43,023 nt of DNA, from UHGV virus genome UHGV-0853564; one strand, 5' to 3'. Origin of the DNA: a virus. The position numbers were made by a program, and so were the translations under genes. This document shows, piece by piece, positions 1 to 43,023 of this stretch (the first letter of the stretch is position 1; the number at the start of each line of letters is the position of its first letter). The notes under the pieces are model-generated. The model ran no database searches. It was not told where the DNA came from and saw only the letters and a program-made list of their open reading frames with translations.

Positions 1-1824
1 AAACGCTTTATACGCGGTGGACGCCTCGCCGAATGCTGTTTTAGCATTAGCTGCCATATCACCAAAAGAGCTACCTAAAGCCTCGGCTCGCTTCGTGGCA
101 TACTGCTCATTGATAGCGTTAAGCGCCGCCTGATACTGTTCCTCGTTAATCAGCCCCTGTTCACGGTATTTATCGGCTACCGCCAGTTTCTGCTGTTCCT
201 GGATGTCGAGAAGCTCAAGTTCGGCGGCATTCTGACCCATAATCTGAGCCATGAAGTCGTCGCCTTTCTGCTGCTTTTCCCGCCGGTCTTTTCTTTTCTT
301 ATCCAGTTCTTCCTGTCTGGCCTGCTCAGCTGTGAGCATAATTTGAGTTTTGGCGTTTTCATACTGCTGCTGGCTTATCGTTCCGGCGCGGTTGAACTCC
401 TCCAGTTTCGCCAGTTTCTGTTCTTCTGCCGCCGTGATACGAGAAATTTCGTCTCCGGTTGTACGGTCAACCGTAGCGAGGAAATCTTCCGCCGCTTTTT
501 TCTGACGTTGTGCTGCCGTTTCTTCACGTTTGGCCTGCGCCGCCAGACGTTTCTCGTTTGATTTAGCCTCGCGGTCTGCCTTCGCTTTTTCGGTAGCGTC
601 GATGCGGGCGATGTCTTGCTGCGCTTCCGTGTCACGGGCGGCGTTATATGCGGCTATTTGTTCTTTGGTTACAGCTTCACGTTTAGCGAACGCTTGTTTA
701 TCCATCTCGGCTTGTGCCCGGATACGCTCACGGTCGCTTAAGATGGCGATTTGCTGATTCTTGACGATAGCTTCGTTCTGTTCCTGGAATCTCTGTGTGG
801 TTGAGTTGACGTTACGACCGAGATTCTTTTGAGCCTCCGCCGCGGCGTTTGCCGACTTCTCCGCGTTCTCCAGTGCCGTTGCGTTCTTGTTGGCATTGTC
901 AGTAAGGCGGATAAGTTCCGGGTTCAACTGTTTCGTGTTGCCTAGCCAGTCGGTGAACACATCGGCGATGCGGCGGGCGTTCTCCGCGGTCGGCTCTTTG
1001 TTAAACGCACTCTGCGCCGCTATCATCTCCAGCGCCTGGTCGCGGTTAACCCCGAACTTACTGCTAAGCTCCGCAATATTCTGCGCCAGCATGTTGACGC
1101 CTACGATATTACCCTCGTAAGTGCCGCCGAGTTTTTCTAACGTGTCGCCTACATCAGCGCCCTTAGATACCAATGCATCGTACTGGCTAATCGCCGATGC
1201 CGTGGATGCTTTCCACGTTTCCCACGATTCTGCGTCCTCACGCACGGCTTTAGCTGTTTGCTGTGCGATAAGGTCCGCGTTAGCCTTAGCCAAAGCAAGT
1301 TGAGTCTCCGCCGCTTCTCGGCTTATTTGGGTAAGCTGGATGAGGCCATCTGTCAGTTCGAGAGAGCCAGATGCCGTTTGCTGGAAGGTATCTTTTAACT
1401 GTTTCTGTGCGGCTTCGAGGTCTTTTGAACTGCCTTCTGCTTCGGTTAGCGATTTGTACAGGACACCGCCAATTGCTGATGCAAGAGCAATTACAGCCCC
1501 AAGCACCGCGCCACCGGGGCCGAAAGCACCCGCAAGCTGCGAACCTTGCTGACCGATTGCTACGAATGCAGACGTACCGGATTGCAACTGGACTACCATG
1601 TCCTGCACCTGGAAACCAACCTGACCGGCTGCATTGCGGAACTTGGCAAAACCGTCGGACGCTGCTTTAGAGGTGGCGGTGTTAACTTTATTAACATCCG
1701 GAGTTAGTTTGTTTACAGATGTGTCCGCCCGGTCTGCAGATGCCGCCATAGCGTCAAGCTGTTTGGCAGCGACGTCAGCCCCTTCAGTTTTTACTCTGGC
1801 GATTAGGGAAGCCGTATCAGCCAT
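1..1824 (-). CDS. tail tape measure protein, N-terminal 608 codons (continues in frame into 43023..42538)
   Basis: ATG at 1824..1822 with GAGGG-type RBS upstream; frame open to position 1; Ala/Gly-rich hydrophobic segment plus long Q/A/E/K-rich helical region; directly follows chaperone pair. Missing from ORF track because it is cut by the window edge. Confidence 0.8.
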   Translation of the reverse strand, partial: MADTASLIARVKTEGADVAAKQLDAMAASADRADTSVNKLTPDVNKVNTATSKAASDGFAKFRNAAGQVGFQVQDMVVQLQSGTSAFVAIGQQGSQLAGAFGPGGAVLGAVIALASAIGGVLYKSLTEAEGSSKDLEAAQKQLKDTFQQTASGSLELTDGLIQLTQISREAAETQLALAKANADLIAQQTAKAVREDAESWETWKASTASAISQYDALVSKGADVGDTLEKLGGTYEGNIVGVNMLAQNIAELSSKFGVNRDQALEMIAAQSAFNKEPTAENARRIADVFTDWLGNTKQLNPELIRLTDNANKNATALENAEKSANAAAEAQKNLGRNVNSTTQRFQEQNEAIVKNQQIAILSDRERIRAQAEMDKQAFAKREAVTKEQIAAYNAARDTEAQQDIARIDATEKAKADREAKSNEKRLAAQAKREETAAQRQKKAAEDFLATVDRTTGDEISRITAAEEQKLAKLEEFNRAGTISQQQYENAKTQIMLTAEQARQEELDKKRKDRREKQQKGDDFMAQIMGQNAAELELLDIQEQQKLAVADKYREQGLINEEQYQAALNAINEQYATKRAEALGSSFGDMAANAKTAFGEASTAYKAF

Positions 1825-2203
1825 CTTCTCTGCCCTCAAATATTCCGTCTAAGCCCATGATAACCTCGGCTTCGAACAAACTTATGCCGTAACCGGCGAC
1901 ATCGCGAAACGCTGCCAAATCTTGCCATTTGAGCGCATCGCGCGGGATTATAACGATAGTATCATCTGTTTCGCGCTGTAGGAATTTAATGGCACGGTAT
2001 TTCTCGAACACGTCGATAAGAGAAACGGGGCATTCTGGCCCCGTCGCTTCTTTCATCTGCGGTTCTTTAATCACGCCCATTGCAATCAAAGCCGCCTGGT
2101 GGCCCGCCGCAATGTCATCGAATTGCTTACGTTTGTGGCGGTCGACAAAGCACCATTGCGCAAATTCATACAGCGCTTTTACTTTTCCGAGAGTCTCTCC
2201 CGG
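1817..2203 (-). CDS. tail assembly chaperone -1 frame extension (gpT-like part of a G-T fusion)
   Basis: -1 frame relative to the 2179..2595 ORF is open from a TAG at ~2206..2204 down to the stop at 1817 and overlaps the tape measure start; classic G/G-T arrangement. Confidence 0.5.
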   Translation of the reverse strand, partial: PGETLGKVKALYEFAQWCFVDRHKRKQFDDIAAGHQAALIAMGVIKEPQMKEATGPECPVSLIDVFEKYRAIKFLQRETDDTIVIIPRDALKWQDLAAFRDVAGYGISLFEAEVIMGLDGIFEGREDG

Positions 2204-2595
2204 CTATCGGTGTGGTGCTTAACTACGGCTTCTGCCAACCCACTGTACTGGTCAAACAGGTTGGCCAGCGCCTCTTTGCTGAATGGTTCGTCGAATGACC
2301 AACCGGTGACGATTTCCACGGCGAGCTGCTTGTTCAGGTCCATAACCCTCCAGCCCTTCTCATCGTTATAGCGCGCCCAGTTATTAAGCGCCTCGCACTC
2401 TTTATCTAACGGAGCAAGTTCTTCCGTAAGGCGTCGAATTGCCGTTGTGTAGGCACGGCCTGCACGAACGCCAGCGTCACAATCGGGGCCGATGACCTGC
2501 AACCATTCGCCGGAGTCTTTACCACTCGGCAGAAGGATAGGCATTTTAGTGCCAGCAGCGTGGCGGTCGGCAAAATAAAAATCAGAAAGTTTCAT
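2179..2595 (-). CDS. tail assembly chaperone (gpG-like)
   Basis: 138-aa ORF immediately upstream of tape measure gene, ending in Lys codon AAG inside a GGAAAAG stretch. Confidence 0.65.
   Translation of the reverse strand: MKLSDFYFADRHAAGTKMPILLPSGKDSGEWLQVIGPDCDAGVRAGRAYTTAIRRLTEELAPLDKECEALNNWARYNDEKGWRVMDLNKQLAVEIVTGWSFDEPFSKEALANLFDQYSGLAEAVVKHHTDSRERLSEK
2182..2188 (-). other. candidate -1 ribosomal slippery site G GAA AAG at end of chaperone gene
   Basis: Minus-strand ...CTC TCG GAA AAG TAA; shifting -1 here gives GGA AAA GTA AAA GCG... which continues open to 1817. Confidence 0.4.
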
Positions 2596-2702
2596 TCTTT
2601 AATCCTTTGGTTAAGAGGTTACAGGTTAAGGTTGACGCGCCAGACGGGAACCACCCGCTTTTCGTGTGCGACACTAGGCGCAAACTTATTCTAGCACACT
2701 AC

Positions 2703-2734
2703 TTGCACACCCCAATATAATAGGGTACTATTCA
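2703..2734 (+). promoter_or_regulatory. promoter-like element TTGCAC-N17-TACTAT with internal TATAAT and AATAG-N4-CTATT dyad
   Basis: ttgcacaccccaatataatagggtactattca, ~25 nt upstream of ATG 2760; near-identical copies at 11659..11690 and (reverse) 22995..23026. Confidence 0.5.
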
Positions 2735-2759
2735 CCTGTAACCTACTGAGGAAACAATT

Positions 2760-3086
2760 ATGCGTAAATTAGTATTAGCTCTGGGGTTTATGTCTTTTGC
2801 TACTTTTGGGGGCCCGTGCGAACAGGTATTTAGTGAATCTGTTCTTATGGCTTCTGGTGTGCTCGATAAAGCCGACCCTACTATTGTAAAGGCATTTAAG
2901 GACTCTACAGTCCGTGAATGTGAGGCTGCCGTAGATGTCGGTAAATCAGGCCTACCTCCGCAGGCCGTAACATATACGGTAATACGTTCGGTAGAGAAAA
3001 ACGGGGACGCGTTTTACAGCCTACTGACAGCCACCCGTCTGCAAATGGTGATGACTGGCTGGGCGATAGGCGCGGAAAGTAAATAG
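2760..3086 (+). CDS. small secreted protein (N-terminal signal peptide), moron gene
   Basis: GAGGA RBS; N-terminus MRKLVLALGFMSFATFGG is signal-peptide-like; opposite strand to flanking tail genes; AT-richer than surroundings. Confidence 0.6.
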   Translation: MRKLVLALGFMSFATFGGPCEQVFSESVLMASGVLDKADPTIVKAFKDSTVRECEAAVDVGKSGLPPQAVTYTVIRSVEKNGDAFYSLLTATRLQMVMTGWAIGAESK

Positions 3087-3151
3087 TCGCCTTTATTTAA
3101 AGGAATCCACTGTGGTTAAATAGGACAAATCCTACACACGAGGACGTAAGC

Positions 3152-4282
3152 ATGGCCCGGAAGAAAATAACCGACGAACAGTTGCAGGAAGAATTGAACG
3201 CCGGTATGAAGAATATCGACATCGCCCGTAAATACGGCGTCTCAGACCGAGTTATTCGTATCCGTAAAGCGAAGCTGGCGAAGAAAGGCGTAGGTCACGG
3301 TCGTGACGTTAGCCATCTTGTGCCGGACGGCTACAAGATTAAAGGAACGTCGTCACTGGTGGACGAGTTCGGCAACACTAAGTTGCAATGGGTTAAGACC
3401 GACACCGACGCCGAACGTCAGGTCGAGTTGATGAAAGCCGTAATCGAGGGCATGAAGTCAGATATTACGCCAGTTGCGCCTGTTAAAGCCTCCCGCACCA
3501 AACGTGATGACAAGCTACTCAATCTTTACACGGTATCTGATTTCCATCTCGGTATGCTGGCCTGGGCCGACGAGAGCGGCGACGACTGGGACATGAAGAT
3601 TGCAGAGGACCTGTTCTCTCGATGGTTCGACGCAGCGTTTCAGAAAGCGCCGGACGCGGGAACGGGTGTTATTAACCTGCTAGGTGACCTTGCGCACTTC
3701 GACAGTCTGGATGCAGTTACGCCAGCGAGTGGTCACGTTCTTGACGCCGATACCCGCTACCAGAAACTTGTACGCTACATGATTCGCATGGTGCGACGTG
3801 TTGTTGATATGGCGCTGGTTAAGCATAAAAATGTTCGCTTGCTTATCGTGCAAGGGAACCACGACGAAAGCGGAATGATTTGGTTAGCTGAAATGTTCAG
3901 TACGCTATACGACAACGAGCCGCGTGTATTCGTCGATACGTCGCCGGATGTTTACAAGATGGTGCAACACGGCAAAACGACATTGTTCTTTACCCACGGA
4001 CATAAAGCGCGCTTCGACGCTATCGAACCGGTTATGATCGCCAAGTTCCGCAAAGCGTTTGGTGAGAGCGTTTACAGCTACGCCCACGTAGGCCACCTAC
4101 ACCATCAGAAGATTGTAGAAAGCCGTAATATGATTGTTGAGCAACACCGCACCTTAGCGGCGAAAGACGCCTACGCCTCTCGCGGTGGATGGATGTCGGG
4201 CCGGAGTGCAAATGTAATTACTTATAGCGCCGAATATGGCGAGGTTGCGCGTTTAACTATTTCACCGGAGATGCTGGGATGA
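3152..4282 (+). CDS. HTH domain fused to calcineurin-like metallophosphoesterase (SbcD/Mre11-like motif set)
   Basis: 376 aa; N-terminal HTH-like segment (NIDIARKYGVSDRVIRIRKAK); motifs SDFHLG, LLGDLAHFD, VQGNHDE, THGH, VGHLHH match metallophosphoesterase motifs I-VI; GAGGA RBS. Confidence 0.8.
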   Translation: MARKKITDEQLQEELNAGMKNIDIARKYGVSDRVIRIRKAKLAKKGVGHGRDVSHLVPDGYKIKGTSSLVDEFGNTKLQWVKTDTDAERQVELMKAVIEGMKSDITPVAPVKASRTKRDDKLLNLYTVSDFHLGMLAWADESGDDWDMKIAEDLFSRWFDAAFQKAPDAGTGVINLLGDLAHFDSLDAVTPASGHVLDADTRYQKLVRYMIRMVRRVVDMALVKHKNVRLLIVQGNHDESGMIWLAEMFSTLYDNEPRVFVDTSPDVYKMVQHGKTTLFFTHGHKARFDAIEPVMIAKFRKAFGESVYSYAHVGHLHHQKIVESRNMIVEQHRTLAAKDAYASRGGWMSGRSANVITYSAEYGEVARLTISPEMLG

Positions 4283-4509
4283 CTTCAAAATACAACCGCA
4301 CAATGACAAATACTCACGGCAGCACTATGACGGTAGACGTTTACGATGTGCTACGCGCCTTCGACATCCGCGACCCGGCATTACAGCACGCATTGAAGAA
4401 GCTGCTGTGTATGGGTCTTCGTGGGCACAAGGACACCGGAACCGACTTAGCGGAAGCAATTGAAAGTCTGGAGAAGTTACGGGAGTATCGAAGCAACATC
4501 GATGAATAA
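4279..4509 (+). CDS. hypothetical 76-aa protein, translationally coupled to the phosphoesterase gene
   Basis: ATGA stop-start overlap with upstream gene; followed by terminator hairpin. Confidence 0.5.
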   Translation: MTSKYNRTMTNTHGSTMTVDVYDVLRAFDIRDPALQHALKKLLCMGLRGHKDTGTDLAEAIESLEKLREYRSNIDE

Positions 4510-4515
4510 GAAAAA

Positions 4516-4531
4516 GGCCCCAAACGGGGCC
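4516..4531. terminator. bidirectional rho-independent terminator (GGCCCC-AAAC-GGGGCC)
   Basis: Perfect 6-bp GC stem with T-runs on both strands; sits between convergent genes 4279..4509 (+) and 4538..5710 (-); near-identical hairpin at 36816..36831. Confidence 0.65.
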
Positions 4532-4537
4532 TTAGTT

Positions 4538-5710
4538 TTATGCGTAGGTGATACGCTGGATAACGATAGACGACTGGTACTGGTTGCCTGTGGACTGCCC
4601 TTCTATACTTTGGGTAATTGATTCAGGGCCAGATATTTCTGGCGTAACCGCCGTAAGCTCTGCGCGTTTCAAACTGAAAGACATAGCCCCGTTTACCCCC
4701 GCCAGAATAGAGTTAATCTCTACCTGCTGTTCGTTGATAAACTTCTGAATCATAGCCATGTCATACAGCTTACCGGAGATGGAGAAGGTGTTAGCTGCGC
4801 GGCTACGTTCCACAAACGCAACGTTAGAGTTGCCGAGTTCGAACTGTGCGGACGCGCTGTTGTCGTTGGTGATGGTAAGGCTATCGCAACGCAACGGGGT
4901 AGAACCGTCGAACACAGAAACGTCGACCGAGGAGAACGGCTCATCAGTAAACGTAACAGAGGAGAAGTCAGAACCAGACGGCGGCGTCGCGAGAATCTCC
5001 TGGCTGCGCCCGATGAACGGGAAGCTGCCCGTTACCATCGCGTTAACGGCCTGCTCCACGGTAAAACCGGAAACTTCCACACCTTTGGTCAGTGTGTACG
5101 CGTCGGCCCCACCGCACTGGCCTTTGTACCAGGTGAGGATAGAGAACGTCTTACACGCGTTACCAGTTTCCAGTTTATCGCCGGTTTTAGCGTCGGTTGT
5201 TACGGTCTCGGTGGTCAGAGTATGTTGGATCCCAGCACCGGTGACAGCAGTCGCACTTACCTCGGTTACGATAAACGGTTTAGCGTTATCGCCCGTTAAG
5301 TCGGTAAACGCAATCAGGTCGCCTACTTCAACGCCATCCGTAATGAAGCTACCGTCGGCACGAGTGAACGTCTTGCCCGCCGGTGCGACGGTAATCGACA
5401 GCCCCGACAGAGAAACACCGGATTGCCACGTAGAGCCTAAAGCCCCCGCTAACCAGTCGTCCTGGCTTTTCGAACTAAGCTCGATAGCATATTCTCCGCT
5501 AACCTGCTTGTTACCGGTACGGATGGACGTAGTTTCACGGCTGCCGTCCAGTTCGTTGGAGGTCAGCGTGTCGCGGGTAATAGCGGGAACGCCACCTGTG
5601 TTGCGCAACGGCGACCATACCGGGTTAGTTGGTGTTACGCCCGGGGTGACTTCCGCCACATAGAATTGCGCGGTAGTCGCGCCCTTAAAAGGAGTTGTAG
5701 CCATATTCAC
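4538..5710 (-). CDS. putative major tail protein
   Basis: 390-aa ORF at the position of the tail tube gene (after neck genes, before chaperones), followed by strong terminator; assignment by synteny only. Confidence 0.5.
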   Translation of the reverse strand: MNMATTPFKGATTAQFYVAEVTPGVTPTNPVWSPLRNTGGVPAITRDTLTSNELDGSRETTSIRTGNKQVSGEYAIELSSKSQDDWLAGALGSTWQSGVSLSGLSITVAPAGKTFTRADGSFITDGVEVGDLIAFTDLTGDNAKPFIVTEVSATAVTGAGIQHTLTTETVTTDAKTGDKLETGNACKTFSILTWYKGQCGGADAYTLTKGVEVSGFTVEQAVNAMVTGSFPFIGRSQEILATPPSGSDFSSVTFTDEPFSSVDVSVFDGSTPLRCDSLTITNDNSASAQFELGNSNVAFVERSRAANTFSISGKLYDMAMIQKFINEQQVEINSILAGVNGAMSFSLKRAELTAVTPEISGPESITQSIEGQSTGNQYQSSIVIQRITYA

Positions 5711-36837: not shown

Positions 36838-38595
36838 TTATGCAAGCCTTGTAACACTAAAAGAAAATGCGCTTGCTATGCCTGCACCGCTGACAGTGTT
36901 CCTAAGTGTAACCCTGAAGCTGGTTGTACTGCTATATATAACATCACAACTCACGGAATCAGGGGCTGATATTGGCGTTATCTGCACCACATAACCATTA
37001 GTAGATGTGGCTAATTGCTGAGAAAATGTCACATCATAAACACCTGTAGCTACCATGTTTACTGAGGATACACCCGGTGCTACATCAATACTGCCATTAG
37101 CGTTAATTCTCCCTGAACGAGGAATGCCGCCAGAGGAAATTGACGCTGCTTTACTTGTTTCTTCCATGAACGTGCAACCTATGTCTATAAACTCAACGTT
37201 ACCTACCGCGTGCCAATATGGTCGCGATACGTCAGGCACGTAACCGGCGACACTCTGGAATGTCGTCCCGTTGAGAATGACTGTTAATTTCCCTCCACCA
37301 GAAGAAGTAGCTAAAATGTTGTAGGTAGTGTACGCCGTACCACTAACCCGATGGAAGTTTCCGCCATTGATAACCAACGTTACTGGACGTGAGCCTGCGT
37401 TGTCGATTAATAAGTCTGCCTTCCCGGAGTTAGCCTCAAAATATGGGTTATTTAGCACTACGGCGCCAGAGCCGTTTAGTCCGTTGACCGCTATATTCAT
37501 TCCTCCGGTGGAATCGCTTCCAGCAATACCATTACCCTCACATGTAAGGCTATTGATAGTTGTTCCGGCGCCCCAGCGGTCCCCTAAAATGCCCCATCGT
37601 GTATTGCCGCTGGCGGTTAATCTGTTGACAGTGATTGCATTAAGTTCTGACCATTCACTGGAGTTAAGTATGCGCCAGCCAATACTGTTACCCTCTAAGT
37701 ACACATTATCCAATTCAGAAGTTAATACAGCGTCTGTTCGTAAACCTTCGCCGTTGGTATGTCCGTAAGATACTATGTTCTCTAACTTGGTGTATGCTTT
37801 ATCGGTTACGAGAAGACCGTAAGACGTTGCTGAGCCTTTTAGCGTAATATTCCCGAGATAATCATAAGCATGTATTCGTTGGGTTGCTCCGACAGTATCC
37901 CCTAGCATCTTCAAGTTAAAATCAGCAACCTGACAGTTAAAGATAGTCTCCGCCATATTCTCGCCCTCGTAATGAGCGCGAACACCAGGAGAGCCTATAA
38001 ATGCGGCGTCGTAGTTTCCATAATCGAGTACCAGCGCCGACGTTACATCATAAACACCTTGTTTAATTTTTAATGCGCCGCCGAGATGCCAGTTAGTTAA
38101 CGGATTCTGGAACATGTCACCGTCAATACGGCTTATAGCATCCCTCACCGCTTCCGTAGTGCTGTACGCAACAAGGTCCGCACCCAAACCATCGTCCGGG
38201 TTTGCCAGGTCATTCCGTAAATTCGGGTCAGTCTGCGGCTCCCAGTCAGCATTACCCACCGGGTTAAACGATGCGGGGACAACAACCGGCAACGTACCCG
38301 CATACGAGTACCATGTTTTGCTAACCGGGTCATAAACTACTTTATCCCGGTCGTCGACAGCTAGTGTTCCGCCAGTGGAAAAGTCCCATGACACGGGAGA
38401 AAACCCAGCATCACGCAACACAGCGGGTAGCGTCTTCTGAGTCTGCCCTGTAACCTGGTTTGTCGCGTAATCAATATCGGCCCCACCAGCTACGCCACCG
38501 GATTTACCAGTGATAACTTCAGCTTCGAAAATCTGGTGTTTTTTTGCGGTCTGTAAGTCCGCCAGGCTTAAAACGTCACCGCATCCGCTTGACAT
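36838..38595 (-). CDS. tailspike / tail fiber with beta-helix-like repeats (candidate depolymerase)
   Basis: 585 aa, Gly/Asn/Thr/Ser-rich repeats typical of right-handed beta-helix tailspikes; last gene of tail operon. Confidence 0.55.
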   Translation of the reverse strand: MSSGCGDVLSLADLQTAKKHQIFEAEVITGKSGGVAGGADIDYATNQVTGQTQKTLPAVLRDAGFSPVSWDFSTGGTLAVDDRDKVVYDPVSKTWYSYAGTLPVVVPASFNPVGNADWEPQTDPNLRNDLANPDDGLGADLVAYSTTEAVRDAISRIDGDMFQNPLTNWHLGGALKIKQGVYDVTSALVLDYGNYDAAFIGSPGVRAHYEGENMAETIFNCQVADFNLKMLGDTVGATQRIHAYDYLGNITLKGSATSYGLLVTDKAYTKLENIVSYGHTNGEGLRTDAVLTSELDNVYLEGNSIGWRILNSSEWSELNAITVNRLTASGNTRWGILGDRWGAGTTINSLTCEGNGIAGSDSTGGMNIAVNGLNGSGAVVLNNPYFEANSGKADLLIDNAGSRPVTLVINGGNFHRVSGTAYTTYNILATSSGGGKLTVILNGTTFQSVAGYVPDVSRPYWHAVGNVEFIDIGCTFMEETSKAASISSGGIPRSGRINANGSIDVAPGVSSVNMVATGVYDVTFSQQLATSTNGYVVQITPISAPDSVSCDVIYSSTTSFRVTLRNTVSGAGIASAFSFSVTRLA

Positions 38596-42534: not shown

Positions 42535-42537
42535 AGT

Positions 42538-43023
42538 TTAATACCCCGGCTGACCGCGAGTAGAGCGGCGAGCTTTAGAAATCGGTGAGTTGTTATCCTG
42601 TAACTGTGACGCTACTGTTTCACTGATTATAATACGTAACCGCCCCTCGTCGTCACGCTCGGTAACGGCAGAATCGACGCGTCCGGTGGTGTTGTTGACT
42701 ATGGTGACGTTATCACCGCCGGACTGGCCGCCGTTTTGTCCCATGATTTCTTTCATCTGCTGCGCGGTGCGCACACGCGATGCACCCGCAGGCATGATAA
42801 CTTCTGGCTTACCACGTTCCGCTATAGTTGACATCTGGCCTGCTGATAACTGCCCGCCCTGTTCACGCGCCGAGCGAATCTTGGCGATATTAGCCAGCCC
42901 CGCAGCTACTGCCGTTGCTGCGGCTACAGGAGCCAGGAATGGGCCGACAACAGGGATAGCAGCCGTTGACTTATACGCCTCAATAGCGGAGGTGTATGTT
43001 GCGATAGTGGCCTGGGCAATAGC
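42538..43023 (-). CDS. tail tape measure protein, C-terminal 161 codons (in frame with 1824..1)
   Basis: Frame open from window end to stop at 42538; hydrophobic segment AAIPVVGPFLAPVAAATAVAAGLANIA; track reports only the 98 aa from an internal Met. Confidence 0.7.
   Translation of the reverse strand, partial: AIAQATIATYTSAIEAYKSTAAIPVVGPFLAPVAAATAVAAGLANIAKIRSAREQGGQLSAGQMSTIAERGKPEVIMPAGASRVRTAQQMKEIMGQNGGQSGGDNVTIVNNTTGRVDSAVTERDDEGRLRIIISETVASQLQDNNSPISKARRSTRGQPGY

What the first reader, a model, noticed from the sequence alone, without database searches (positions are those of the whole stretch)
2760..3086. Secreted small protein in the tail region: candidate superinfection-exclusion factor
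The ORF has a typical signal peptide (MRKLVLALGFMSFATFGG) and a mature part of about 85 aa with two Cys. Small periplasmic or outer-membrane proteins encoded next to tail genes in other phages block the phage's own receptor (T5 Llp and Cor-type proteins are the established examples).
Basis: inference. Interest (0 to 1): 0.6.

Follow-up and report, generated by a model that had tools for sequence, protein, structure and literature searches.

The report
Exported phage protein in exclusion-gene slot
A small protein that this virulent E. coli phage most likely exports into the host periplasm sits, behind the same promoter, exactly where sister phages carry a T4 Imm-type superinfection-immunity gene, so it is a good but untested candidate for a new kind of factor that keeps later-arriving phages out.

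Summary
The ORF at 2760-3086 (+) is a real, constrained gene (dN/dS 0.05) of a Kagunavirus-like siphophage. It has a Sec-type signal peptide, most likely cut after G17. No lipobox is present. The roughly 91-aa mature part is predicted all-helical (AF2 pLDDT 85) and carries two family-invariant cysteines. It belongs to phrog_14165 (unknown function). It has no Pfam, NCBIfam, PADLOC or PDB relative and no fold match.

Its position is the strongest evidence. It is the first gene of an opposite-strand island between the tail-tube and tail-assembly-chaperone genes, behind a conserved sigma70-like promoter. In about 440 related phage genomes this slot holds either this protein (99 records) or a 63-aa two-TM Imm_superinfect protein (PF14373, about 345 records), apparently never both. 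In more distant relatives it holds other small exported or membrane proteins. In Jerseyvirus the cassette swaps while the chaperone and tape-measure genes stay 96-98% identical.

Best reading (about 0.45): a periplasmic superinfection-exclusion factor acting after adsorption, built like T4 Spackle but not homologous to it. There is no lipid anchor, the gene is not next to the receptor-binding gene, these phages use glycan receptors, and the protein is over 95% conserved across phages with different tailspikes. The function is untested.

The parts
2703..2731 (+). Sigma70-like promoter of the slot gene: TTGCAC (2703-2708), 17-nt spacer, TACTAT (2726-2731).
   Evidence: Sequence. Both hexamers are conserved in Kagunavirus and Jerseyvirus loci whether the downstream gene is the secreted protein or the Imm-like gene. 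It was not reported by the consensus scan, because the -35 hexamer matches only 3 of 6. Promoter function is inferred.
2735..3120 (+). Swappable cassette. Similarity to Imm-carrying sister phages stops about 25 nt upstream of the ATG and resumes about 32 nt upstream of the next gene.
   Evidence: Pairwise blastn of K1H against L038 and L050, and of Jersey against L026. Boundaries were transferred to window coordinates by inference.
2748..2752 (+). Shine-Dalgarno sequence GAGGA, 7 nt before the ATG.
   Evidence: Sequence.
2760..3086 (+). CDS of the 108-aa exported protein (phrog_14165), stop codon included.
2760..2810 (+). Predicted Sec/SPase I signal peptide, residues 1-17 (MRKLVLALGFMSFATFG). 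An alternative cut after A14 is possible.
   Evidence: Rule-based analysis and family alignment. Low pLDDT in the AF2 model. SignalP was not run.
2811..3083 (+). Mature domain, residues 18-108. Predicted helices at 19-25, 28-32, 40-62, 68-76 and 84-106. The C-terminal SLLTATRLQMVMTGWAIGAESK is the most conserved stretch.
   Evidence: AF2 mean pLDDT 85.3, pTM 0.74. Alignments.
2817..2819 (+). Codon of Cys20, invariant in the family; presumed disulfide partner of Cys54.
   Evidence: The disulfide itself is inferred.
2919..2921 (+). Codon of Cys54, invariant in the family.
3152..4282 (+). Downstream island gene (context only): 376-aa protein with an N-terminal HTH-like region and a metallophosphoesterase domain (phrog_704).
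   Evidence: Absent from the island in some relatives (L003, L006, L007).
4279..4509 (+). Downstream island gene (context only): 76-aa protein of unknown function, annotated DUF3310 in a relative.
4514..4533 (.). Bidirectional intrinsic-terminator-like hairpin. It closes the + strand island and lies 4 nt past the end of the tail-tube gene on the - strand.
   Evidence: Annotated as a terminator on both strands in phage Sciku.

Best explanation
The gene encodes a small Sec-exported periplasmic protein: a helical bundle of about 91 aa, probably stabilised by a Cys20-Cys54 disulfide. It is expressed from its own host-type promoter.

Its most likely job is superinfection exclusion after adsorption. 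It would act inside the envelope of the infected cell to stop the genome of a later-arriving phage from reaching the cytoplasm. In this it would be a functional alternative to the Imm-type inner-membrane protein that most sister phages carry at the same place.

Shown here: the gene is real, it has export signals, a confident helical model and invariant cysteines, and the cassette alternates with an Imm-family gene.

Inferred: export and disulfide formation actually occur, expression is early, the function is exclusion, and the step blocked is DNA entry. The molecular target is unknown. It could be an incoming tail or tape-measure component, or a conserved host periplasmic or membrane factor.
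For: 1. Extracytoplasmic location:
- All family members keep an n/h/c signal peptide with an aligned small-x-small cleavage site, while the signal sequence itself drifts and carries indels.
- Two cysteines are invariant across 54 clusters.
- Residues 1-18 are excluded from the confident AF2 fold.

2. Same slot, same promoter, alternative cargo:
- Other Kagunavirus and Jerseyvirus genomes have a 63-aa two-TM protein between the conserved TTGCAC-17-TACTAT element and the phosphoesterase gene. It scores 51.6 bits against PF14373 Imm_superinfect (gathering score 27.9), hits phrog_1039 'immunity to superinfection', and aligns to T4 Imm itself at E = 8e-10.
- Counts are complementary. 440 records hold the region, 99 hold this protein and 366 hold the Imm-like protein. 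By name: Escherichia 103 = 30 + 73, Kagunavirus 11 = 3 + 8.
- No Imm homologue exists elsewhere in the window or in Bas76.
- None of about 50 IMG/VR loci has both.

3. The slot is a hot spot for small envelope proteins. It also holds divergent signal-peptide two-Cys proteins, N-terminally anchored single-TM proteins and another two-TM protein. In L007 the secreted protein is the only gene between the chaperone and tube genes.

4. The swap is clean. Jerseyvirus loci L022 (secreted protein) and L026 (Imm-like) have 96% identical chaperone and 98% identical tape-measure proteins.

5. Precedents:
- T4 uses Imm together with Spackle, a signal-peptide-bearing 75-aa periplasmic helical bundle with one disulfide.
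- The HK97 gp15 exclusion moron lies between the chaperone and tape-measure genes.

6. Strong purifying selection (dN/dS 0.053) and 95-98% identity across phages with different tailspikes point to a conserved target rather than a receptor-specific one.
Against: - No experiment exists for this family.
- The Imm-like proteins of these phages are themselves untested, so the argument rests on two stacked inferences: homology for Imm, and positional replacement for this protein.
- No virion-borne peptidoglycan hydrolase domain was found that could be a Spackle-type target.
- Hot spots next to structural genes also collect genes with other functions.
- The only transcriptome of a relative classes the slot gene (Imm type) as peaking late, in a long and poorly synchronised time course. 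This does not support early expression.
- Signal-peptide cleavage was judged by rules, not by a trained predictor.
Confidence: 0.45

Rival explanations
1. Receptor inactivation of the Llp/Cor/Rtp45 type. The exported protein binds the periplasmic face of an outer-membrane protein that the phage needs for irreversible adsorption or DNA ejection, and switches it off. This also protects progeny from being trapped on cell debris.
For: - The protein is exported, small and carries a probable disulfide, like Llp and Rtp45, which act from the periplasmic side.
- Ten divergent family clusters carry a motif that fits the PROSITE lipobox pattern (A-[VFI]-[LI]-G-C17, Ser at +2).
- A soluble periplasmic protein could in principle reach the inner face of the outer membrane.
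Against: - The window protein and all its close relatives have no lipobox.
- The lipobox-like variants also keep the aligned A-x-A SPase I site, so lipidation is uncertain.
- The gene is not at the receptor-binding-protein locus, where small siphophages encode such factors.
- Kagunavirus and Jerseyvirus are reported to depend on O-antigen or capsule glycans as terminal receptors, with no porin receptor known.
- The protein is 95-98% identical in K1-capsule-specific and O16-specific phages.
- Its positional alternative is an inner-membrane Imm-type protein.
Confidence: 0.12
2. A periplasmic function unrelated to exclusion. Examples are a lysis-timing regulator (a T4 RI-like antiholin or sensor), an inhibitor of a host periplasmic enzyme (nuclease, protease, lysozyme-like), or a counter-measure against an envelope-based host defence.
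For: - No homology ties the protein to any known exclusion factor.
- From my own knowledge, T4 RI is also a small, mostly helical periplasmic protein.
- The slot gene of a relative was classed with late-peaking genes.
- Strong purifying selection fits any conserved host target.
Against: - The lysis cassette is complete elsewhere (two holins, endolysin, Rz/Rz1-like spanins in the Bas76 annotation). The holins are small (102 and 90 aa), which by inference leaves no room for a large periplasmic domain for an RI-type partner.
- PADLOC has no match.
- The mutually exclusive replacement by an Imm-family protein under the same promoter is not explained by these roles, unless the Imm-like proteins share them too.
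Confidence: 0.3
3. The N-terminal hydrophobic segment is not cleaved but anchors the protein in the inner membrane with the helical domain in the periplasm. That is the topology of HK97 gp15. There the protein would interfere with channel formation by the incoming tape-measure protein.
For: - The h-region is short and the predicted signal peptide is only 17 aa.
- HK97 gp15 is an inner-membrane exclusion protein encoded beside the chaperone and tape-measure genes.
- Other occupants of the slot are N-terminally anchored single-TM proteins.
Against: - Sites that obey the -3/-1 rule are conserved and aligned in all subfamilies, with classic A-x-A in most (AEA|T, AIA|G, VAA|E).
- The hydrophobic core of about 11 residues is too short for a stable TM helix. 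It fell below a TM threshold that flagged other membrane ORFs in the window.
- The cassette swaps independently of the tape-measure allele in Jerseyvirus.
Confidence: 0.1
4. The ORF is not a functional gene.
For: None beyond its small size. 60 ORFs of at least 100 aa occur in the six frames of the window.
Against: - dN/dS is 0.053 over 66 pairs.
- The full-length ORF is conserved in 99 phage records and 54 clusters.
- A Shine-Dalgarno sequence and a conserved promoter are present.
- The AF2 model is confident.
Confidence: 0.01

Closest known systems
T4 Spackle (gp61.3)
   Same: - Encoded by a virulent phage.
- Precursor of about 100 aa with a cleavable N-terminal export signal.
- Small acidic periplasmic all-helical domain with a single Cys pair (Spackle Cys29-Cys81; here Cys20 and Cys54).
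- In T4 it works alongside Imm; here the gene alternates with an Imm-family gene.
   Different: - No detectable homology (hhalign probability 1%).
- Spackle's target is the gp5 tail lysozyme. No lysozyme or peptidase domain was found in the tape-measure or tail proteins of this phage group.
- T4 carries both imm and sp, whereas these phages carry one or the other.
T4 Imm / Pfam PF14373 Imm_superinfect
   Same: It occupies the identical genomic slot behind the same conserved promoter in sister phages, in a mutually exclusive pattern.
   Different: Imm is a small protein with two TM segments in the inner membrane. The window protein has one cleavable N-terminal hydrophobic segment and a soluble helical domain. 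It gives no Pfam match.
T5 Llp, Rtp45, Cor (superinfection-exclusion lipoproteins of small siphophages)
   Same: Small exported phage proteins with a disulfide that act from the periplasmic side in the infected cell.
   Different: Those are lipoproteins of about 6-8 kDa, encoded next to the receptor-binding gene, and they bind a protein receptor (FhuA, LptDE). Here there is no lipobox, the locus is different, the phages use glycan receptors, and the sequence is conserved regardless of tailspike type.
HK97 gp15 moron (YebO-like inner-membrane exclusion protein)
   Same: A small envelope protein gene with its own transcription signals, inserted beside the tail-assembly-chaperone gene inside the tail gene block. 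It blocks DNA entry without touching the receptor.
   Different: - gp15 is membrane-anchored and expressed from a prophage of a temperate phage.
- The window phage is virulent.
- The window gene is on the opposite strand and its protein is predicted to be released into the periplasm.
- Sequence relatedness was not tested.
Streptococcus phage TP-J34 Ltp (from my own knowledge, not checked here)
   Same: An exported helical protein that blocks DNA injection, reported to act on the tape-measure protein.
   Different: It is a lipoprotein of a Gram-positive temperate phage with two repeat domains. It was not compared here.

Membership tests
phrog_14165 (unknown function) | Full-length match to the family profile. 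| tested here: met
   E = 1.7e-54, residues 1-108 on profile positions 1-109 of 109. The divergent slot occupants of L025, L027 and L028 also match (E = 2.4e-41).
Sec/SPase I-exported protein | Positive n-region, hydrophobic h-region, small residues at -3/-1, no Pro at +1, no positive charge early in the mature part. | tested here: met
   R2 and K3; LVLALGFMSFA; T-F-G|G-P-C-E. The site aligns across the family. The test was rule-based only, because no SignalP was available.
Sec/SPase I-exported protein | Experimental export and cleavage. | not testable with these tools
   Needs PhoA or BlaM fusions, fractionation and N-terminal mass spectrometry.
T4 Spackle family | Sequence homology to gp61.3. 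| tested here: not met
   hhalign of the family alignment against T4 Spackle: probability 1%. PDB sequence search with the profile: no match at E up to 10.
T4 Spackle family | Same fold as the solved Spackle structures. | tested here: not met
T4 Spackle family | Architecture: cleavable export signal plus a small helical bundle with one Cys pair. | tested here: met
   compared with the description in PMC7677548. This is a resemblance in design, not membership.
T4 Spackle family | A virion-borne lysozyme as target. | tested here: inconclusive
   Pfam finds no lysozyme or peptidase domain in the tape-measure protein, distal tail proteins, J-like protein or tailspike. A divergent domain cannot be excluded.
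Imm_superinfect (PF14373) | Match to the Pfam model; two TM segments. | tested here: not met
   No Pfam family at E up to 1. The only hydrophobic segment is N-terminal. The alternative occupant of the slot does meet it (51.6 bits against a cut-off of 27.9).
Llp/Cor/Rtp45-type exclusion lipoproteins | Lipobox with lipidated Cys. | tested here: not met
   No lipobox in the window protein or in any cluster of its Kagunavirus and Jerseyvirus relatives. Ten distant clusters have a lipobox-like motif of uncertain meaning.
Llp/Cor/Rtp45-type exclusion lipoproteins | Encoded next to the receptor-binding protein gene. | tested here: not met
   The gene lies between the tube and chaperone genes. The tailspike is at 36838-38595.
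Llp/Cor/Rtp45-type exclusion lipoproteins | Phage uses a protein outer-membrane receptor that the factor inactivates. | not testable with these tools
   The literature reports glycan (O-antigen, K1 capsule) terminal receptors for this group. A hidden protein co-receptor cannot be excluded computationally.
HK97 gp15-type moron | Independent transcription unit inserted beside the tail chaperone gene. | tested here: met
   Own conserved promoter-like element. In L007 it is the sole gene between the chaperone and tube genes. GC is 48% against 51% for the genome, only slightly lower.
HK97 gp15-type moron | Uncleaved inner-membrane anchor; YebO homology. | not tested
   The gp15 sequence was not fetched. 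The topology argument favours cleavage.

The most novel reading that the evidence does not exclude
phrog_14165 is a new, structurally orphan family of periplasmic superinfection-exclusion proteins of glycan-dependent virulent siphophages. It is interchangeable with Imm as a plug-in cassette, and it acts on a conserved step of genome delivery through the periplasm or inner membrane, or on a conserved envelope machine. This would show how phages whose receptor is too abundant to be masked still close the door behind them.
Probability: 0.4. Interest if true: 0.65.

Novelty: new variant of a known kind. Interest (0 to 1): 0.5.

Why it matters
Exclusion factors of virulent phages are known in molecular detail for only a few model phages: T4 Imm and Spackle, T5 Llp, and Rtp45.

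The authors of the BASEL collection point out that masking the receptor is probably futile for phages that use O-antigen or capsule as receptor. How such phages deal with superinfection and with debris is open.

Here, about 440 sequenced phages fall into two classes. They differ by a clean cassette swap behind one promoter: an Imm-type membrane protein or this exported helical protein. That is a natural experiment. Isogenic swaps and expression in trans in the available BASEL hosts and phages (Bas70-76 all carry the exported protein) could test directly whether the family is an exclusion factor, at which step it acts, and whether the two cassettes exclude the same phages.

It also matters for phage cocktails built from Jerseyvirus and Kagunavirus isolates, where members may exclude each other. 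It corrects the statement that all Jerseyvirus phages carry imm.

Tried and rejected
- Pfam, NCBIfam and PADLOC gave nothing for the protein. PHROGs gave only an unknown-function family.
- The PDB sequence search with the family profile found no match.
- Two large repeat proteins (P0029, P0030) came up in the exhaustive phmmer search. I judge them to be spurious matches in repeat-rich proteins and left them out.
- Spanin or lysis role: rejected. The protein has no lipobox and no C-terminal TM segment, and a complete holin, endolysin and Rz/Rz1 set is annotated elsewhere in Bas76.
- C-terminal TM anchor: rejected. The Kyte-Doolittle mean stays below about 1.1 for the C-terminal helix, which contains Arg93 and Gln95.
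- Coupling of the cassette to the tape-measure allele: in Kagunavirus the exported protein goes with one chaperone/tape-measure type and Imm with another. This is not general. Jerseyvirus loci with 96-98% identical chaperone and tape-measure proteins carry either cassette. L004 combines a 38%-identical family member with a 96-97%-identical chaperone.
- A tail lysozyme as a Spackle-type target: no such domain found.
- Positive selection: not seen at whole-gene level (dN/dS 0.05).
- Lipoprotein subfamily: ten clusters fit the lipobox pattern, but the motif aligns with the h-region of the other signal peptides and the A-x-A site is retained. I leave this open.
- Distant slot occupants of L035/L036 and L054 have the same architecture but only weak or no profile similarity: hhalign 6-7% for both, phrog_14165 E = 0.002 for L035/L036 and no PHROG hit for L054. 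L052 shows none. I do not count them as family members.

Full report
**What the window is.** The region around the finding is 90-92% identical at the DNA level to Kagunavirus phages: LM08P2, BUCT789, the BASEL isolates Bas70-76, and K1H. The gene order of the whole window matches the annotated genome of Bas76. The window is therefore a complete, circularly permuted genome of about 43 kb from a virulent siphophage of the subfamily Guernseyvirinae, opened inside the tape-measure gene.

**The observation.**
- The ORF at 2760-3086 (+) exists and encodes 108 aa.
- It has a GAGGA ribosome-binding site 7 nt before the ATG.
- It is a genuine gene. Full-length orthologues occur in 99 phage records. A profile search in 5.8 billion proteins returns 54 clusters, almost all 108-123 aa apart from four shorter, apparently truncated ones. 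All lie on contigs of at most 46 kb, and none carries a functional name.
- An exhaustive phmmer scan of 1.84 billion cluster representatives finds only eight credible relatives.
- dN/dS among Kagunavirus copies is 0.053. This is comparable with the phosphoesterase (0.048) and the tail tube (0.074).

**Export signal.**
- The N-terminus has two positive charges, an 11-residue hydrophobic core and small residues at -3/-1.
Established knowledge says signal peptidase I does not accept this.
- The site that aligns across the family is TFG|GPCE after G17. It corresponds to SFA|HPCE in Jerseyvirus and AEA|TPCE, AIA|GP.C, VAA|EEKFPC in more distant members. The mature protein is therefore about 91 aa.
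- The signal region varies in sequence and length while keeping its character, as signal peptides do.
- The window protein has no lipobox.
- The two cysteines are invariant in all clusters, spaced 34-37 residues apart. For an exported protein this suggests a disulfide, by inference.
- SignalP could not be run, so export is well supported but not proven.

**Structure.**
- AlphaFold2 with a 19-sequence alignment gives mean pLDDT 85 and pTM 0.74.
- Residues 1-18 have low confidence. The rest is an all-helical domain with helices at 19-25, 28-32, 40-62, 68-76 and 84-106.
- Foldseek against PDB gives nothing below E = 4.8.
- Foldseek against viral models gives only the K1H orthologue.
- A profile search of PDB sequences finds nothing.
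- Pfam, NCBIfam and PADLOC are empty. PHROGs places the protein in phrog_14165, function unknown.

**Genomic setting.**
- The gene is the first of three + strand genes wedged between the tail-tube gene (4538-5710, -) and the tail-assembly-chaperone gene (2179-2595, -).
- It is followed by an HTH-plus-metallophosphoesterase protein (3152-4282) and a 76-aa protein (4279-4509). A bidirectional terminator-like hairpin closes the island (4514-4533).
- Relatives only 33-41% identical sit at the same place, directly divergent from the chaperone gene. The rest of the island varies from nothing (L007, where this is the only gene) to ten further small genes (L004).
- The exported protein is therefore the constant element of the island.

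**The decisive context.**
- In many other Kagunavirus and Jerseyvirus genomes the same slot holds a gene annotated 'superinfection immunity protein'.
- Its real product is about 63 aa with two TM segments.
- It scores 51.6 bits on Pfam PF14373 Imm_superinfect (cut-off 27.9), hits phrog_1039 'immunity to superinfection', and aligns with T4 Imm itself (E = 8e-10).
- In the phage collection the region is found in 440 records. The exported protein is in 99 and the Imm-like protein in 366, of which about 345 belong to this phage group. The per-name sums match: Escherichia 103 = 30 + 73, Kagunavirus 11 = 3 + 8.
- The window and Bas76 have no Imm homologue anywhere. None of the roughly 50 IMG/VR loci I fetched has both.

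**Boundaries of the swap.**
- The intergenic region is conserved across both genera and both cassette types. It includes a TTGCAC/TTGCAT-17-TACTAT/TATTAT promoter-like element.
- Similarity stops about 25 nt before the start codon and resumes about 32 nt before the phosphoesterase gene.
- This is a cassette exchange under one promoter.

**Other occupants of the slot.** A systematic look at loci lacking both cassettes shows the slot then holds other small envelope proteins:
- a divergent true family member (hhalign 98%);
- further signal-peptide two-Cys proteins of uncertain relatedness;
- single-pass N-terminally anchored proteins (phrog_5031);
- another two-TM protein;
- or, in one locus (L031), no ORF of at least 30 aa (141 bp between the tube and chaperone genes).

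**Is the cassette tied to the tape-measure protein?**
- In Kagunavirus the exported protein travels with one chaperone/tape-measure allele and Imm with another. The chaperone is about 50% identical, and the first 450 residues of the tape-measure protein are unalignable.
- The link is not general. Jerseyvirus loci with 96% identical chaperone and 98% identical tape-measure proteins carry either cassette.
- I therefore do not claim a tape-measure-specific mechanism.

**Interpretation.**
- The best explanation is that the protein is a periplasmic superinfection-exclusion factor acting after adsorption, as a functional alternative to Imm.
- T4 provides the closest design precedent. Spackle is made with a cleavable export signal and matures to a 75-aa periplasmic helical bundle with one disulfide. 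It cooperates with Imm.
- The resemblance is in design only. hhalign gives 1%, no fold match exists, and no tail lysozyme domain was found here.
- HK97 gp15 is a precedent for an exclusion gene placed beside the chaperone and tape-measure genes.
- The argument has two inferential layers. The Imm-like proteins of these phages are assigned by homology only, and the exported protein is assigned by positional replacement. I put the confidence at about 0.45.

Llp/Cor-type receptor blocking is less likely, about 0.12.
- Those factors are lipoproteins encoded at the receptor-binding locus and act on FhuA or LptDE.
- This phage group is reported to use O-antigen or capsule glycans through tailspikes as terminal receptors. 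The BASEL authors argue that receptor masking would be futile for such abundant receptors.
- The protein is 95-98% identical in K1-specific K1H and O16-specific Bas76, which argues against a receptor-specific partner.
- Ten distant clusters have a lipobox-like motif (A[VFI][LI]G-C17, Ser +2). This motif aligns with the h-region of the other signal peptides, and the A-x-A site is retained, so I leave lipidation open.

**Other rivals.**
- A different periplasmic role, such as lysis timing, enzyme inhibition or anti-defence, gets about 0.3. It cannot be excluded because nothing ties the fold to a function. The only related transcriptome classes the slot gene as late-peaking, in a poorly resolved time course.
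- A lysis-machinery role is unlikely because holins, endolysin and spanins are all present elsewhere.
- An uncleaved membrane anchor (gp15-like topology) is possible but disfavoured by the conserved cleavage sites and the short hydrophobic core.

**Novelty and interest.**
- The family is uncharacterised and structurally orphan.
- The class of function proposed is known, so I rate it a new variant of a known kind.
- The clean, mutually exclusive cassette swap over about 440 genomes is a ready-made experiment in available phages and hosts. It bears on how glycan-dependent virulent phages handle superinfection.
- Interest is 0.5.

Noticed in passing
window 2640-2690 (intergenic region between the chaperone gene and the slot gene): A stretch GCGCCAGACGGGAACCACCCGCTTTTCGTGTGCGACACTAGGCGC is almost invariant between Kagunavirus and Jerseyvirus, although the flanking genes are only about 60% identical. 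It contains a short GGG...CCC hairpin followed by TTTT. It may be a regulatory element for the divergent chaperone/tape-measure transcription unit.
   Followed up: no
window 3152-4282 (+): A 376-aa protein combines an N-terminal HTH-like segment (weak GerE/FixJ-type and terminase-small-like hits at residues 3-45) with a metallophosphoesterase domain. It is phrog_704 'DNA repair exonuclease' and is annotated variously as phosphatase, DNA polymerase II small subunit or oxidoreductase. It is much more conserved between the genera (89%) than its neighbours.
   Followed up: partly
window 4279-4509 (+): This 76-aa protein matches only the C-terminal third of longer PHROG families (for example positions 150-220 of the 235-position phrog_2452). 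It looks like a free-standing C-terminal domain. One record annotates it as DUF3310, but Pfam here gives no significant hit.
   Followed up: no
window 1-1800 and 42535-43023 (- strand): The tape-measure gene appears to run off the start of the window and continue at its end, so the window is a whole circularly permuted genome opened inside this gene. Between Kagunavirus lineages the N-terminal part of the tape-measure protein (about 450 aa) and the chaperone are replaced by unalignable or only 50% identical versions, while the C-terminal 326 aa stay 89% identical.
   Followed up: partly
window 1817-2089 (-), downstream of the chaperone gene 2179-2595: The second chaperone ORF is annotated in phage fFiEco03 as a joined, programmed-frameshift product with the first (the G/GT arrangement). 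The slippery site in the window was not looked for.
   Followed up: no
relatives NTEC3, SCS92, 590B, AV104 (hits H16-H19, H26): These phages match the 2500-4400 region in two pieces with about 480 extra bases and an annotated HNH homing endonuclease. This suggests a mobile insertion within or beside the island. In fFiEco03 an HNH-like gene sits between the island and the tube gene.
   Followed up: no
literature versus loci L022 and L024 (phage Jersey): A paper states that all Jerseyvirus phages contain imm (PMC8425127). The type phage Jersey and at least 60 Salmonella phage records carry the exported protein in that slot instead. No Imm-like match was found in the Jersey locus.
   Followed up: partly
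L008 1563-1892 and L009 1563-1892 (fFiEco03, Sciku): The annotated 109-aa 'superinfection immunity protein' ORFs begin in the conserved intergenic/promoter region. The Pfam domain and the homologous 63-aa ORF of Ro145c2YLVW suggest the true start is the internal Met (MTGITMFF...), giving about 63 aa.
   Followed up: partly
L001 4129-4221 (Bas76_0024), corresponding to about window 2628-2720: A 30-aa ORF annotated in Bas76 lies inside the conserved intergenic/promoter region. It is probably not a gene.
   Followed up: no
L032 883-2918: In this relative the island between the tube and chaperone genes holds, besides a single-TM slot protein, a 213-aa protein with a Rha/antirepressor-like N-terminus and two other proteins of 187 and 100 aa. 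The island accepts larger accessory genes.
   Followed up: no
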